64,000 bases of DNA from NCBI RefSeq assembly GCF_021869535.1, contig NW_026262701.1, positions 21,576,001 to 21,640,000 of the forward strand, given 5' to 3'. The stretch comes from Mytilus californianus. Taxonomy: Eukaryota. Position numbers: made by a program. Positions 12,001 through 18,000 of this stretch are shown piece after piece; positions within the stretch are counted from its first letter, which is position 1; each line of letters begins with the position of its first letter.

Positions 12001-15000
12001 ATAATGAATCACCATTGATTTCAGTACTTTTAGTACATCAGGATTGGTTGCATTTCATAAAATATGTTGAATTTAAGGAGTCAGATACTAAATTTAATAT
12101 TCGCATTGCATAAAAATACAAATATTTCTTCTTTTATATCAGAAATAGTGCAATGCAATTGCTATCAGTCATTATAAATGCCTTTAGATAAGTAATTTTT
12201 AATAAAATGTGAATAAAGAAGGATAAATATGCATAAACTTTTGTTTTTGTTGAAATAGAATGCAATAATTCCTTTATTTGAATGGAAATTATTGACCGTC
12301 ATTGGATTTTTGTACTTTTTATAGCTTAGGATTGATTATTTTTTATCAAGTTAAAAGACTATCAGAAAAAATATACTATAATGTTGTTCTCGTTGTTTAA
12401 AATTACCAATATTTTTTTATTTTTAGGAGAATTTGCAGCATTTTTATTTGTCATTTGTTATTTTAATGGCTTCGAGATAAGTTTGTTTAAAGAATTTTAA
12501 GATTATAAGGATAAAATCCTTTAAAATATTTAAGAATAATACATCGACATTTGCAATAAAAGATCATTTCATTTTATTTTCAAGAGCATTTGCGGAAAAT
12601 AATAAAATCACTGAAAATCGCGATAAACACCGTTTTAGAGATGTCCGGGTTTGAAAAAAATTAAAACGAAAATGACCATTCTTTAATAGTAATATATAAA
12701 TTAAGTTTTATATGCATATTTCTTTTCTTTTTATATTCTTAAAACTGTGCTAAATAATTAAAAATGAAAAAAAATGTTGATCATTTGTACTTGAATGTTT
12801 CGTATTTTCCATCTCGCCATTTTAATTAAATGAAACGAAACTAAGATTTCGTAATTTGTATTAGTTTATCATGTGACGTAGTAGAGTTCAATCCGTCAGA
12901 AAGGTCGATCGGTCCTATCCGTCCGATCCGTCCGATCAGTCAAATACTTTTACTATAAGTCTGACGGATTGGTGACGTGAGTTTGACGCGAACTTGACTG
13001 ATCGGTGACTGATCGATGACCGCTGATTGATCGCTAAAACAGTAACGCCTAAGGTTGCAAGTACTGTATCACGATCTTGAAATATGGGAAATCACTATAA
13101 ATTTGTGAATAGAAAACCATGCTAAAGGTTGTTTTAAACAAATTAAAGGGGATTGGGGGACCCAACTTCATAACATACGAGTTATTAGTAACTCCATGAA
13201 TTATCAGTGTTAAAATTTCACCTTAACGTTTTGTTTTTTTTATTAAAGGAAAAGAATTAATGGTTCCATATTTATGTACCAGATCTAGAGCCAGTAAGTA
13301 TTCGAGAACGGAGACCTTTAAGTTAGACTGAATTGTTGATGTATAAGGCGATACGTTAGGCAATATGAAACAGATGGTGTTTAAAATATGCATAATACAA
13401 GAAAATCTGACACAAATAATCATGAAGCAAACACGTTTGTACCGGTATCAATTATGTTTGTTTTAATAAATTCATTCAGATGATGCAATGCTTTTAAACA
13501 AACATAAGACTCTAGTTCACAATAGACATGCGATTTCAGATTATATTATTAAATTGTGTTGTTAGTATCCGATTGTAACCTTAAAACAGTGCATTCAAGT
13601 GCAGAATAGATTAAGAATGGATACCTATTTATTTAAAAGCATTAGATTTTCATGTCTTTGGAAATTCAATGAAAAAAAACAAAATTTAAGTCGTTACTGA
13701 GGATGATCAGCAACAACAAAAAAATGTTAAAACACACATCTGAAGTATCAGAGTTTAAGCCTAGTATCTTTAATTAGTTGTTCCAACTAAAGTGATGTTA
13801 CAATATTTATCTTATGGATGGCCCGGTAAACGTTGTGTTTTATGTCTAAAGAAAGTGTATGCCTATTCTTTTAAAAGGCTCTGCTGAGCAAAATTTATGG
13901 TGTATATATGGCTAAGAATTGATTGACTCTGCTAGTAAAATCAGAATCTTCTTTTTTGAAGACTCAATTCTACTAAACTATAATCTTTGTAAGGAAATTG
14001 AAAAAAAATGTTTTATTTTGACTTCTTTAGGGTACTGCTATGTTTCGTTCTTCATTTGAATAGCCGGTGTAATTTGGATTTCTGTGTAGTAATTATTTGT
14101 TGTTCTATTTTTGGACTGTGTTTATAGCTGTATTCTTTTTCATATTTGTATTCAAATATAAAGAAGATCTACATCGTATTTCGAATAAAACCACCTATTC
14201 ATAGTCCCATTGCTTCTTATAGTATGCCTTTTTCAAGCATTTATAGCTATTTTTTCTGAAGTTCAAATAAAGTTGGAGTTATTTCATTGAAAAACTATTC
14301 CTTATCCTGATATGTGCTGAATATTCAACATACCTTCCATTAAAAATATTGTGTAAAACTGTTGCCGCGCATTTATATGTAAACCGTAAAATAAGTAAAA
14401 TACGAAAATATCAAGATATTTATGACGTCATGGTGACATCACAAATTACTGTTGTTCACTAAAGTAACAAGATTATATCAACCTGTTCATGTATCAATAA
14501 TATTCAGATTTTTCAAAGTTTGAGAGGATTTGCAAATATTTACATACCATTAACTAAACATTCGTGTTTTGCCAACTGCAAATCAATCGACCACAACAAT
14601 AACGATGGATTGATACATACAAAAAGTAATTAAGAGAAAACACAAATAAAGCTTTATTTATCTATCATTCATATCAATATTGATATCTTTCTTGTTTCAG
14701 TACTAATACAGATAGCCTTTGTTTCCCTAATATGAACTAATATCCTCCCCATGGACCGTTATTCCAGCCCTTATTCCAACCATAACGTCCGTGATATCCA
14801 TTGTATCCATTATAGCCATAGTAACCATTGTTGTATGGCCATGGTGTATTATATCCTGGATCATAACCCTGAAATGAAAAAAAACCATTAAATTTTGAAT
14901 TAATTATGATGTAGACATATAAAACAATTCAAAACCGATGCGTAACATCAGTTCATAAGATGAAGATATATTAACTATGTAGTCGATGATTTAAGTCCAA

Positions 15001-18000
15001 TCGAAAATAAGGAGACAAAATCATGGCAAAAAAAAACGTAAAAAGAAATAAAGAAAAACAACACTATACAAAACGCAACAGGGAATGAAGACTGACCAAC
15101 ACGAACCCCAACAAAAACCGTTGGGATCTCAAGTCCTCCTAAAGGGTAAGCAGACCCTGTTCCACATTTTGCATCCAACATGTTACTCATGAACGTACAT
15201 ACCCGGTGATAAATCGTTTTCAGTAGGTCACATTCGAGGAAAAGAGGACGGGATTATGGGTATGACAATTTGTACATATCTGTTGTCATCTGTGAACTAG
15301 ATATTCCATAACAGTCAACCAACTGGTGATGGCGTCCGTTAAAATTTAGAAGGAAGGGTTTCAAGTTCACTACTTGGAACTCTTTGTTAAATACCTCCAA
15401 GGAAATCATGATACGAAATGCAAGGTCTGGAATATCGTATCAACTAGGAGAATCATATCCATATACAGGCGCTAATTAAATGTTGCAACGAGAAATGGAA
15501 AGTTCACAATTAATATAAAAATCTGAAATCATCTCTTTTGTTGTTAAGTCTTTTTTTCAAACAATCCTCATTGTCAATTTTTATATGTAAGTCAAAATAT
15601 GAGGCCGACTTAATAATATTTACCAATTTTGCTGCACTAGAAGGGCATTTCGACAATAAATGTCTTTTCAGTGATGCTCGAATCCAAAATGTTTGAAAAT
15701 CAAAAAAAATTATTAAAAAAAATTAAGAGCTTACAAACTACAAAGGTCAACAAGTATAACCTTAACTGTATTTGTTGTATTCTTTATTTCAAGTCATTGG
15801 GATACATGTGTTCAACAAAGTCATCAAATTTTTAATTATTCAGTGTGAGGACATCATCTTTATAGCGAAAGTGAAGTTAAAGGATAATGCTATCTTCTTT
15901 TCATTCTTCCTAAGAACCTCTTGAATGCAGTCAGCTTCATATTAATAAAAGAGGAACATGTCAGCAAAAAGAGGCGTACAGTTGGTTCCACCAGAATATA
16001 TATACATTAAAGGCGATGCGGCTTATACGTCAATCAATGGCAACACCAACCAATGCGACATATAGTATTCAAAATACCTTTAACAGTTGACAAATTTGTA
16101 TATACAATCTGTACCTAATCAAATCGCAGCTAAGCAGTAATGAAAACTATCAAACAGGGACGTAAAAATGTATTATAACATTAGATTCAAAGAAGGACAT
16201 TACGATATACCTATTAATCGATGACGAGGATTCTGATCATGAATTTAAAAAAAAACATTTGAACATAAAACAAGGTTCAACATTTTTTAAGCACACAACA
16301 AAAAGGCCATTTATGAAAATTTGAAAAGGTTTGTTTCCAAATTGAGACATCTATCCAACATGACAGAAAGACAAGGATGTGAATGACCTATAGTCACCGT
16401 ACGGCATGCAACTCTAGTTTAGTCTTCTTTTTTTTTGTATATTTGAAAATATTTGAACATGAGTTATATACCCAATAATAGATAAGACTTTTATAGTTAA
16501 TTGATATATTATTAATAAGTTAATATGTTTATAACGTGAAGTTACCACTAACAACGTTTATTTTGAACAAATTATATCAACGTTACCTCCTTTGTTGCGA
16601 AGAGTAAATGTAACGTGATTTTACCACTAACAACGTTTATTTTGTAAGATTGTACATATGTTTACCATGAATATCTTCCGTGAGGAGTGAAACCGGTAGT
16701 AACAATGTGAACAATGTAGACTATAGTTTTTTCAATATTACACACTGAGGGCTTATTGGTTGAAGGTTGATACGTAGAGTGATATGGAAAAAACCATCTC
16801 ATTTGAAAAAATGTTTGCCGTTTATCTATGTCCCTAAATTAGATGTTTATCACGTATCAATAAGACTTTGTAACCGTGACTGAATCGTCAGGGATGTTTG
16901 ACGCCGAACGATTTTCATTCATTGTATTATAAATAACGTTGACTTGTATTAACTGTTAAGTTTATGATAAAACCAAATATCTTGATGCCATACCATAAAA
17001 AACTTCAAGTATTTTTAAACTTACATAACCTGCGTCTGAAAAAAAAAACGTTATCAATTATAATTAATCTTAATTTAGTCTTGAAAATAATATACTTGTA
17101 ATCATTGTCTGAAACTTTTATCTTTAAATAAAAAAAATATTTTTTATTATTTATGTGCCAGTAAATGATAATTTGTATAATTTATATATAAGAGTTATGG
17201 AAAACTATAAGAAGACAAACAATAGCAGAGCTATAATACATAACAAATTTTTTAACAACATCAAAATAATGACAAATAGTAAGGAAAAAATACTCACTTA
17301 AAGAAAACAAATTATAACTTTCTTCCTGTTTTCCCATCCCTTTGATGTTGTTGTAATTGCCAATTTTGGTAGGACATAAAGACTTAATTTAATTGTTTCA
17401 AGAGTTTGTTTGCTATTTTGAAAATGACGAAACCTATTCACAACGAAATTGATAGCTAGTATTTTTGCATGTAGCTAATGTCTCTATTTAAAAAATCCGA
17501 CATAACATATATATCAAGAGTTACGTACATACATATTGTTTGACAATTAATGAAAATATTAAAACAATTAAATATAATGAACCGCTTTAATAAGTCAAAC
17601 CTTTACTTACCACTCTGAACTGCAAATAATCCAATAAGGACTAAAGCCAGCAAAACTGTGACACTGAATTTATTCATTGCTACTAAATCAAGTTTTCTGC
17701 AGGGATAATCTGATTGCTGAGAAATACTCTTTATATACATTTCGCAATCAAACCACTGCAAATCAAGAGGAAAAAACAATCGAACACATGTTTCTATTAC
17801 AATAAGATTAAAATAAAAATAAAAATTTCAGTGTATTACATAATCCGTATTCCTTGTCATATTAGATGCAAGAAGAAAATAAAAAAATTAAAAATACCAA
17901 AAGAATTAATAATATGTTAACTCTATGATTCATTAAAGGAAAATCATTAAACTACTGTTGTAATAAAAAGTAAAATAAAAAAAAAAAAATGAACTCCAAG

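What the first reader, a model, noticed from the sequence alone, without database searches (positions are those of the whole stretch)
14737..17748. mfp-3 gene architecture: the signal-peptidase site is encoded by an 11-nt micro-exon
Seen: in copies 1 and 3, exon 1 ends mid-codon (AGT G), an 11-nt exon supplies D-A-G-Y and exon 3 starts in phase 0. The micro-exon carries the -2/-1 residues (DA) and the first two mature residues, and is the only frame adaptor, so skipping it gives a frameshift. Such genes are invisible to ORF finders and easily mis-annotated. Inference: micro-exon inclusion is a potential on/off or N-terminal-variant switch for a byssal adhesive. I do not know whether this structure has been published.
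Basis: partly seen in the sequence, partly recalled or inferred. Interest (0 to 1): 0.68.

Follow-up and report, generated by a model that had tools for sequence, protein, structure and literature searches.

The report
Mussel glue gene with 11-base exon
Three tandem copies of a mussel foot-protein-3 adhesive gene lie here, and in two of them an 11-base exon joins the secretion signal to the adhesive part: real on present evidence, but an ordinary gene-structure detail that automatic annotation can miss.

Summary
On the minus strand, copies 1 and 3 have an exon 1 of 22 codons plus one base (…AGT G|gtaagt). An 11-nt exon follows (17035-17025; 58028-58018), flanked by T-tract-CAG and GTAAGT, and then a phase-0 exon 3. 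All three exon-1 peptides pass Pfam Mfp-3 (PF04202), covering profile positions 1-22. Copy 1 exon 3 aligns weakly from position 28, so four positions are left for the micro-exon's four codons. A published Mfp-3 precursor (UniProt Q9GUX8, printed in PMC9287526) ends its signal peptide …VQS-D-A. That matches what the micro-exon adds.

Splice-signal strength alone is not significant. Its conjunction with D-A has a chance expectation of about 0.003. I had no transcript data.

The "switch" idea is untested. Plain skipping stops after 2 codons. Copy 2 lost the micro-exon in a deletion of about 2.6 kb. Ten literature searches found no published description of this structure. Modest interest.

The parts
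17730..17737 (-). Copy 1 TATA box (TATATAAA), 53 nt upstream of the ATG
   Evidence: Read directly. The same motif lies upstream of copy 3 (58631-58638) and copy 2 (35718-35725).
17611..17677 (-). Copy 1 exon 1 coding part: 22 codons of signal peptide plus 1 base (G). The donor is G|GTAAGT.
   Evidence: Pfam PF04202 Mfp-3: E=2e-5, 25.3 bits (cut-off 22), profile positions 1-22.
17036..17610 (-). Copy 1 intron 1 (575 nt, GT..AG)
   Evidence: Ends in ten T plus CAG.
17025..17035 (-). Copy 1 micro-exon, 11 nt, phase 1 to phase 0. It completes Asp and codes Ala, Gly, Tyr. An internal AG at 17031-17030 is a possible second acceptor, giving a 5-nt exon.
   Evidence: D-A matches residues 23-24 of Q9GUX8 as printed in PMC9287526.
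14869..17024 (-). Copy 1 intron 2 (2156 nt, GTAAGT..TTTCAG). It holds an interspersed repeat at about 15000-15650.
14737..14868 (-). Copy 1 exon 3 coding part: 43 codons plus TAG. Gly/Tyr/Asn-rich mature adhesive protein.
   Evidence: Weak Pfam Mfp-3 match: residues 2-38 to profile 28-62, E=2.4.
14653..14658 (-). Copy 1 AATAAA polyadenylation signal
   Evidence: Read directly.
58512..58578 (-). Copy 3 exon 1 coding part (22 codons plus G)
   Evidence: Pfam Mfp-3: 22.5 bits, profile 1-22.
58018..58028 (-). Copy 3 micro-exon ATGCAGGTTAT. It gives the same D-A-G-Y reading, with one synonymous difference from copy 1.
55371..55529 (-). Copy 3 exon 3 coding part (52 codons plus TAG)
35572..35638 (-). 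Copy 2 exon 1 coding part (22 codons plus G)
   Evidence: Pfam Mfp-3: 23.3 bits.
35413..35571 (-). Copy 2 single 159-nt intron. It consists of the first ~113 nt of intron 1 fused to the last ~48 nt of intron 2, and the micro-exon is deleted. There are 0 frame-compatible internal exon candidates.
35254..35412 (-). Copy 2 exon 3 open frame (52 codons plus TAG). It is out of frame with exon 1 through the canonical acceptor, giving a stop after 6 codons.

Best explanation
The window holds three tandem, same-strand paralogs of a mussel foot protein 3 gene of the Tyr/Gly/Asn/Trp-rich 'slow' (mfp-3S-like) type.

The intact genes (copies 1 and 3) have three coding exons behind a TATA box:
- Exon 1 gives the 5' UTR and 22 1/3 codons of the signal peptide.
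- An 11-nt micro-exon, probably constitutive, completes Asp and codes Ala-Gly-Tyr.
- Exon 3 gives the rest of the 5-6 kDa adhesive protein and the 3' UTR.

The micro-exon changes the phase from 1 to 0. It also holds the bond that signal peptidase cuts (…S-D-A | G-Y…). This is inferred from a homologous precursor whose signal peptide is given as residues 1-24.

An 11-nt exon has almost no room for exonic enhancers. Its use would therefore depend on its near-consensus signals: ten T plus CAG upstream and GTAAGT downstream. That dependence is inference.

Copy 2 lost the micro-exon in a deletion of about 2.6 kb between short direct repeats. Spliced canonically, it is frameshifted, so it is probably a recent pseudogene.

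Shown here: the sequence anatomy, the frames, family membership of exon 1, and the D-A match. Inferred: actual splicing, the cleavage position, and constitutive use.
For: - Anatomy and frames are as described.
- 3 of 3 exon-1 peptides pass Pfam PF04202 (25.3, 22.5 and 23.3 bits against a cut-off of 22), each on profile positions 1-22.
- Copy 1 exon 3 residues 2-38 map to profile 28-62. Its first residue therefore sits at position 27, and exactly 4 profile positions (23-26) are left for the 4 codons closed by the micro-exon.
- PMC9287526 Table 1 prints UniProt Q9GUX8 with a signal peptide of residues 1-24 ending …FAVQSDA. By eye, 17 of 22 exon-1 residues are identical to it, and D-A follows VQS exactly as in the micro-exon reading.
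- All 25 residues of the published mfp-3S-pep occur in order within copy 1 exon 3 (by eye).
- Among 117 (copy 1) and 136 (copy 3) frame-compatible open candidate internal exons, the 11-nt exon and its nested 5-nt form rank first.
- Outside the genes, 0 of 4956 candidates combine a D-A start with a score of at least 25. The expectation is about 0.003 per intron.
- The strict splice module occurs only 3 times in the window, and 2 of these are the micro-exons.
- The only micro-exon difference between copies is synonymous.
- Exon 3 composition fits Mfp-3: G 23-28%, Y 23-25%, N 17-19%, and 5.0-6.2 kDa. PMC9999432 passages describe MFP-3 as 5-7.5 kDa and non-repetitive.
Against: - No transcript, cDNA or other mussel genome could be consulted, so use of the junctions is not shown.
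- Copies 1 and 3 are about 95% identical in introns and exons alike. Aligned-only identity is 0.948-0.957 for introns, 0.970 for exon 1 and 0.952 for exon 3. Paralog conservation therefore says nothing about the micro-exon.
- The crude splice score alone is reached by 151 of 400 random intron-sized segments.
- Exon 3 alone fails Pfam: E=2.4 for copy 1 and no hit for copies 2 and 3.
- Copy 2 lacks the micro-exon, yet its exons are more conserved against copy 1 than its flanks: 10 of 183 differences against 95 of 567, Fisher p=7e-5. This could mean a gene can do without the micro-exon, or it could reflect gene conversion or a recent deletion.
- One synonymous change is very weak evidence.
Confidence: 0.8

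Rival explanations
1. Regulated switch. Inclusion of the micro-exon is variable. Skipping turns the gene off through a premature stop, or alternative sites give N-terminal variants of the adhesive.
For: - Skipping gives a stop after 2 codons in copies 1 and 3.
- Two in-frame alternatives exist in the sequence: a 5-nt exon through the internal AG and the AG at exon-3 offset 13.
- The introduction of PMC4640085 says in general terms that mfps are polymorphic through multiple genes or alternative splicing (passage).
Against: - There is no expression data.
- The signals are near-consensus on both sides, which from general knowledge of splicing fits constitutive use.
- The known Mfp-3 polymorphism is already explained by multiple gene copies. 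There are three here, differing most at the start and end of exon 3.
Confidence: 0.1
2. The exon actually used is the 5-nt version (GTTAT), spliced at the second AG of cagACGCAG. The precursor would lack D-A and be cut after …VQS, giving the same mature N-terminus.
For: - The 5-nt candidate scores as high as the 11-nt one in both copies (26 vs 26 in copy 1; 26 vs 25 in copy 3).
- It keeps the frame.
- V at -3 and S at -1 fit the -3/-1 rule (established knowledge; not computed here).
Against: - The homologous precursor carries D-A after VQS.
- The Pfam coordinates leave 4 positions, not 2.
- From general knowledge, the first AG after the pyrimidine tract is normally preferred.
Confidence: 0.07
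3. The micro-exon is a chance look-alike. Exon 1 is spliced straight to the AG 13 nt inside exon 3, which is in frame in all three copies, and this would also make copy 2 functional.
For: - The internal AG restores the exon-3 frame in 3 of 3 copies.
- Copy 2 exons are conserved beyond their flanks.
- Splice-score strength alone is not unusual.
Against: - It requires bypassing a strong upstream acceptor (T-rich tract plus TTTCAG) only 13 nt away.
- It does not explain why a near-consensus acceptor/donor pair coding exactly D-A sits in the intron (expectation about 0.003).
- It would remove the G-Y-D start that the published mfp-3S-pep shares with exon 3.
Confidence: 0.04
4. The copies are unexpressed relics, or duplicates created by assembly, and the structure has no present function.
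For: - Copies 1 and 3 are about 95% identical throughout.
- Copy 2 is frameshifted.
- Copy 1 has a 7-nt insertion that shortens its C-terminus.
Against: - Copies 1 and 3 keep the TATA box, start codon, all splice signals, open frames and AATAAA.
- They differ by several indels of 17-277 nt, so they are not identical duplicates.
Confidence: 0.05

Closest known systems
Mytilus foot protein 3 precursors (Pfam PF04202; e.g. UniProt Q9GUX8 as printed in PMC9287526)
   Same: - The signal-peptide exon passes the Pfam cut-off in 3 of 3 copies.
- By eye, 17 of 22 signal residues are identical to Q9GUX8.
- The signal peptide ends in D-A.
- The mature protein is small, Tyr/Gly/Asn-rich and non-repetitive.
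   Different: - The mature part here is the Trp-rich, Arg/Lys-poor type, with only 2-3 K+R residues per exon 3. It is not the Arg-rich form printed for Q9GUX8.
- Exon 3 alone does not reach the Pfam cut-off.
mfp-3S ('slow' variant) and the derived 25-residue mfp-3S-pep (printed in PMC9845597)
   Same: All 25 residues of the peptide occur in order within copy 1 exon 3, including the G-Y-D start and the R-Y-G-W-N-K-G-W-N block (by eye).
   Different: - The peptide is a shortened designed homolog.
- I could not see the natural full-length mfp-3S sequence or its N-terminus. PMC3587158 and PMC3960351 are not held.
Very small micro-exons (15 nt or less) that annotation pipelines miss (PMC8831610 on plants; PMC4317164 on human brain; I saw only the search listing and the start of each abstract)
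   Same: A coding exon of 11 nt with canonical AG/GT borders, needed for the frame, and invisible to ORF lists. Only 2 ORFs of at least 130 aa exist in the window, and neither is this gene.
   Different: Those studies rest on RNA-seq evidence, and none was available here. The gene is a secreted structural adhesive, not a neuronal or developmental regulator.
Phase-1 introns close to signal-peptide cleavage sites (Tordai and Patthy; recalled, not read here)
   Same: Exon 1 ends in phase 1, two residues before the inferred cleavage site.
   Different: A second intron follows only 11 nt later, so the cleavage site sits on its own asymmetric (phase 1 to 0) exon.
Micro-exon gene families of secreted proteins (schistosome MEGs, PMC10526429; aphid bicycle genes, PMC9168663; I saw only the search listing and the start of each abstract)
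   Same: A secreted protein gene with a very short internal exon between long introns.
   Different: Those genes are built from many micro-exons. This gene has a single one, and most of the protein lies on one ordinary exon. It is not a member of those families.

Membership tests
Mfp-3 (Pfam PF04202, mussel foot protein 3) | N-terminal signal peptide matching the family profile above the curated cut-off | tested here: met
   3 of 3 exon-1 peptides score 25.3, 22.5 and 23.3 bits against a cut-off of 22, on profile positions 1-22 of 71.
Mfp-3 (Pfam PF04202, mussel foot protein 3) | Mature region matching the family profile | tested here: inconclusive
Exon 3 was searched alone. Copy 1 gives E=2.4 and 9.1 bits (below the cut-off), on profile 28-62. 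Copies 2 and 3 give no hit.
Mfp-3 (Pfam PF04202, mussel foot protein 3) | Signal peptide ending …VQS-D-A before the mature chain | tested here: met
   The micro-exon reading gives D-A after exon 1's …VQS. Q9GUX8, as printed in PMC9287526 Table 1, has a signal peptide of residues 1-24 ending in the same residues. Compared by eye.
Mfp-3 (Pfam PF04202, mussel foot protein 3) | Small (5-7.5 kDa), Tyr-rich, non-repetitive plaque protein | tested here: met
   Exon-3 products are 5.0-6.2 kDa, with Y 23-25%, G 23-28% and N 17-19%. The description comes from PMC9999432 passages.
Mfp-3 (Pfam PF04202, mussel foot protein 3) | Expression in the foot gland, Tyr-to-Dopa modification, presence in the byssal plaque | not testable with these tools
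mfp-3S ('slow') subtype | Sequence likeness to the published mfp-3S-derived peptide; few basic residues | tested here: met
   25 of 25 peptide residues occur in order in copy 1 exon 3 (by eye). K+R is 2-3 per exon 3.
Coding micro-exon | AG and GT borders with a pyrimidine tract; length that keeps the frame; no stop | tested here: met
   Ten T (copy 1) or nine T (copy 3) plus CAG, then 11 nt, then GTAAGT in both copies. Phase 1 to phase 0.
Coding micro-exon | Presence in mature transcripts | not testable with these tools
   No transcript collection or eukaryotic genome collection was open.
Coding micro-exon | Conservation above the intron background | tested here: inconclusive
   Copy 1 against copy 3: micro-exon 10 of 11 identical, with introns at 0.948-0.957 aligned identity. 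There is no contrast to measure. Copy 2 lacks the region.
Micro-exon gene families (schistosome MEG-like) | A gene built mostly from many short exons | tested here: not met
   The gene has one micro-exon only, and 43-52 of the codons lie on one ordinary exon.
Tandem alternative acceptors | Two AGs a multiple of 3 nt apart at one intron end, both used | tested here: inconclusive
   Two AGs 6 nt apart are present in both copies (cagAYGCAG). Usage cannot be tested here.

The most novel reading that the evidence does not exclude
The fp-3 N-terminal junction may be a small splicing hub. The three possible routes are the 11-nt exon, the nested 5-nt exon, and complete skipping rescued by the AG 13 nt into exon 3.

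The first two would give precursors with or without D-A. The third would lack eight residues, including the first Tyr/Dopa positions.

This would add a splicing layer to the known Mfp-3 polymorphism. It would also let the micro-exon-less copy 2, whose exons are conserved beyond their flanks, still make protein.
Probability: 0.1. Interest if true: 0.5.

Novelty: new member of a known kind. Interest (0 to 1): 0.3.

Why it matters
Mfp-3 is one of the interfacial primers of mussel adhesion and a template for synthetic wet adhesives.

- **Annotation.** A correct gene model is needed to count and annotate the fp-3 family in mussel genomes. A pipeline that misses an 11-nt exon would call these genes frameshifted or would truncate them.
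- **Pseudogene marker.** The structure gives a simple marker for dead copies, namely loss of the micro-exon, as in copy 2.
- **Testability.** It makes directly testable, with junction reads, the old question of whether Mfp-3 variants come from many genes or from splicing.
- **Limits.** It is an annotation-level result. It does not reveal a new mechanism.

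Tried and rejected
- **Paralog conservation as evidence for the micro-exon.** Rejected. Copies 1 and 3 are about 95% identical everywhere.
- **Crude splice-consensus score as a significance test.** Rejected on its own. 151 of 400 random segments reach a score of at least 25, and 102 of 400 reach at least 26. Only the conjunction with D-A is informative.
- **Hidden micro-exon in copy 2.** There are 0 candidates in its 159-nt intron. By eye, two AG…GT stretches of 5 and 11 nt keep the frame, but they would need introns of 11 and 27 nt, so I rejected them.
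- **Further diverged fp-3 exons in the window.** Exon-wise tblastn finds only the three copies. All other hits have E above 1e-4, apart from one self-overlap.
- **Other database searches.**
  - PDB sequence search with exon 3: 0 hits.
  - ESM Atlas with exon 3: no usable hit.
  - Rfam on the whole window: 0 matches.
- **Literature.**
  - I ran 10 searches.
  - One search returned only MFP-3D microscope papers.
  - One search was too loose: none of the 25 listed papers holds "mussel foot protein".
  - One search returned 0 papers.
  - None of the passages I read describes fp-3 exon-intron structure.
- **Papers not held.** Inoue 1996, PMC3587158 and PMC3960351.
- **Not done.**
  - The joined spliced protein was not searched or folded. 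It was searched exon by exon only.
  - The bacterial and archaeal genome collection, and the phage, plasmid and E. coli collections, were not queried, because they cannot hold a mussel gene.
  - The closed protein-set searches and the metagenome and viral collections stayed unchecked.
  - Paper supplements were closed. Supplementary Fig. S8 of PMC7971044 (Perna fp-3 genes) might bear on fp-3 gene structure.

Full report
**What is in the sequence**

The finding lies on the minus strand, and the window has no N. It is not human sequence. It carries a mussel adhesive gene family.

In copy 1 a TATATAAA box (17737-17730) lies 53 nt upstream of an ATG at 17677. The open frame runs 22 codons and then ends as CAG AGT G|GTAAGT at 17611, which is phase 1.

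575 nt further on, ten T and CAG precede the 11 bases ACGCAGGTTAT (17035-17025), which are followed by GTAAGT. With the G carried over from exon 1, these bases read Asp-Ala-Gly-Tyr.

After another 2156 nt, a T-rich tract plus TTTCAG precedes exon 3 (14868-14737). Exon 3 starts in phase 0 and codes 43 residues before a TAG. An AATAAA follows at 14658-14653.

Copy 3 has the same build:
- ATG at 58578 and exon 1 end at 58512.
- Micro-exon ATGCAGGTTAT at 58028-58018.
- Exon 3 at 55529-55371, with 52 codons.

**What the gene is**

I did not search or fold the joined spliced protein.

- All three exon-1 peptides pass the curated cut-off of Pfam PF04202 (Mfp-3, foot protein 3). They score 25.3, 22.5 and 23.3 bits against 22, and each covers profile positions 1-22 of 71.
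- Exon 3 of copy 1 gives only a weak match (E=2.4; residues 2-38 on profile 28-62). Exon 3 of copies 2 and 3 gives none.
- The exon-3 products are 5.0-6.2 kDa, with 23-28% Gly, 23-25% Tyr and 17-19% Asn. This fits passages in PMC9999432 that describe MFP-3 as a polymorphic, non-repetitive protein of 5-7.5 kDa.
- PMC9845597 prints a 25-residue peptide, mfp-3S-pep. By eye, all 25 of its residues occur in order in copy 1 exon 3.

The genes are therefore Mfp-3 genes of the Trp-rich, weakly basic "slow" type. I could not determine the species.

**Is the micro-exon real?**

Three lines of evidence bear on this.

1. *Pfam coordinates.* Exon 1 ends at profile position 22, and the first residue of exon 3 falls at position 27. 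That leaves exactly four positions for the four codons closed by the 11-nt exon.

2. *A published precursor.* PMC9287526 Table 1 prints UniProt Q9GUX8 (MFP3). Its signal peptide is residues 1-24 and ends …FAVQSDA, and the mature chain starts at residue 25. By eye, exon 1 here shares 17 of 22 residues with it and ends …VQS. The D-A that follows is what the micro-exon supplies.

3. *Statistics.*
   - Between exon 1 and exon 3 there are 117 (copy 1) and 136 (copy 3) AG…GT stretches with the right length class and no stop. The 11-nt exon and a nested 5-nt form rank first on a simple consensus score.
   - That score is not significant by itself. 151 of 400 random intron-sized segments of the window reach at least 25, and 102 of 400 reach at least 26.
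   - The conjunction is what counts. Outside the three genes there are 4956 candidates in 113,174 scanned bases. Of these, 25 start with D-A, 26 reach the score, and none does both. The expectation is about 0.003 per intron.
   - A stricter module (at least 9 of 10 pyrimidines, YAG, 3-30 nt, GTRAGT) occurs three times in the window, and two of these are the micro-exons. Simulated sequence gives a mean of 0.47.

Two observations carry little or no weight:
- Copies 1 and 3 are about 95% identical in introns and exons alike, so conservation between them is uninformative.
- The single micro-exon difference is synonymous (GAC/GAT).

No transcript data were available.

**How it most likely works**

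Exon 1 supplies the n- and h-regions of the signal peptide and the -3 Ser. The -2 Asp codon is split across the first junction. The -1 Ala and the first two mature residues lie on the micro-exon.

By homology with the residue 1-24 signal peptide, signal peptidase would cut between Ala and Gly. That bond is encoded inside the 11-nt exon. I did not compute a cleavage prediction.

An exon this short has almost no room for exonic enhancers. I therefore infer that it is recognised through its near-consensus flanking signals and is included constitutively.

With the normal exon-3 acceptor, skipping does give a stop after 2 codons in copies 1 and 3. Two in-frame alternatives nevertheless exist in the sequence:
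- A second AG lies 6 nt inside the micro-exon (cagACGCAG|GTTAT; cagATGCAG|GTTAT). It would give a 5-nt exon that drops only D-A.
- An AG lies 13 nt into exon 3. It restores the exon-3 frame after complete skipping in all three copies.

Whether either is used cannot be tested here. The "switch" reading therefore remains speculation.

**Copy 2**

Copy 2 has its ATG at 35638, exon 1 end at 35572, and exon 3 starting at 35412. It has a single 159-nt intron.

Alignment shows that this intron is the first ~113 nt of intron 1 joined to the last ~48 nt of intron 2. The junction lies at a short imperfect direct repeat. So a deletion of about 2.6 kb removed the micro-exon. There are 0 internal exon candidates, and canonical splicing gives a stop after 6 codons.

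Even so, the exons of copy 2 differ from copy 1 at 10 of 183 positions, against 95 of 567 in the flanking non-coding sequence (Fisher p=7e-5). Three readings fit this:
- the deletion is recent;
- gene conversion keeps the exons alike;
- copy 2 is still read through the +13 AG.

**Literature and novelty**

I ran ten full-text searches and read passages from several papers. None describes an exon-intron structure for fp-3.

- PMC7971044 (passages) says that fp-3 is multi-copy and tandemly duplicated in Perna, and that multi-copy status was suggested for M. galloprovincialis by Inoue et al. 1996.
- PMC4640085 (passage) mentions multiple genes or alternative splicing only in general terms.
- Inoue et al. 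1996, Wei et al. 2013 and Wei et al. 2014 are not held.
- Supplements were closed.
- Public Mytilus gene models could not be consulted.

I therefore rate this as a new member of known kinds. It is an Mfp-3 family gene with a constitutive coding micro-exon next to a signal-peptide phase-1 intron. It is useful for annotation and of modest interest.

Noticed in passing
window 14737-14760 (copy 1) against 55371-55400 and 35254-35285, minus strand: Copy 1 carries a 7-nt insertion near the end of exon 3. This creates an earlier TAG, giving 43 codons instead of 52. The three copies therefore differ in C-terminal length as well as in the first 11 residues of exon 3.
   Followed up: partly
window 35413-35571, minus strand: Copy 2 lacks the micro-exon through a deletion of about 2.6 kb between short direct repeats. 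Its exons are nevertheless more conserved against copy 1 than its flanks are (10 of 183 against 95 of 567 differences).
   Followed up: yes
window 43628-44305, plus strand: A 225-aa open frame matches the C-terminal half of a Mutator-like transposase (PF20700, E=1.4e-29). It is a transposon remnant between copies 2 and 3.
   Followed up: partly
window ~15000-15650 (intron 2 of copy 1), with copies at 24803-24995, 25759-26293, 19355-19510 and 55930-56587: An interspersed repeat sits inside intron 2 of copies 1 and 3. It recurs in the intergenic DNA at 70-73% identity, partly in the opposite orientation.
   Followed up: partly
window 55606-55880 and 57607-57713 (copy 3 intron 2): Insertions of 277 nt and 103 nt relative to copy 1. 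Neither has another copy in the window.
   Followed up: partly
window 26579-26605, plus strand: This is the only other strict micro-exon-like module in the window: a pyrimidine tract, CAG, 8 nt, then GTAAGT. It lies next to the interspersed repeat and is probably a chance match.
   Followed up: no
window 16532-16565 and 16611-16644: A 34-nt direct repeat (94% identity) inside intron 2 of copy 1, also present in copy 3 (57421-57454).
   Followed up: no
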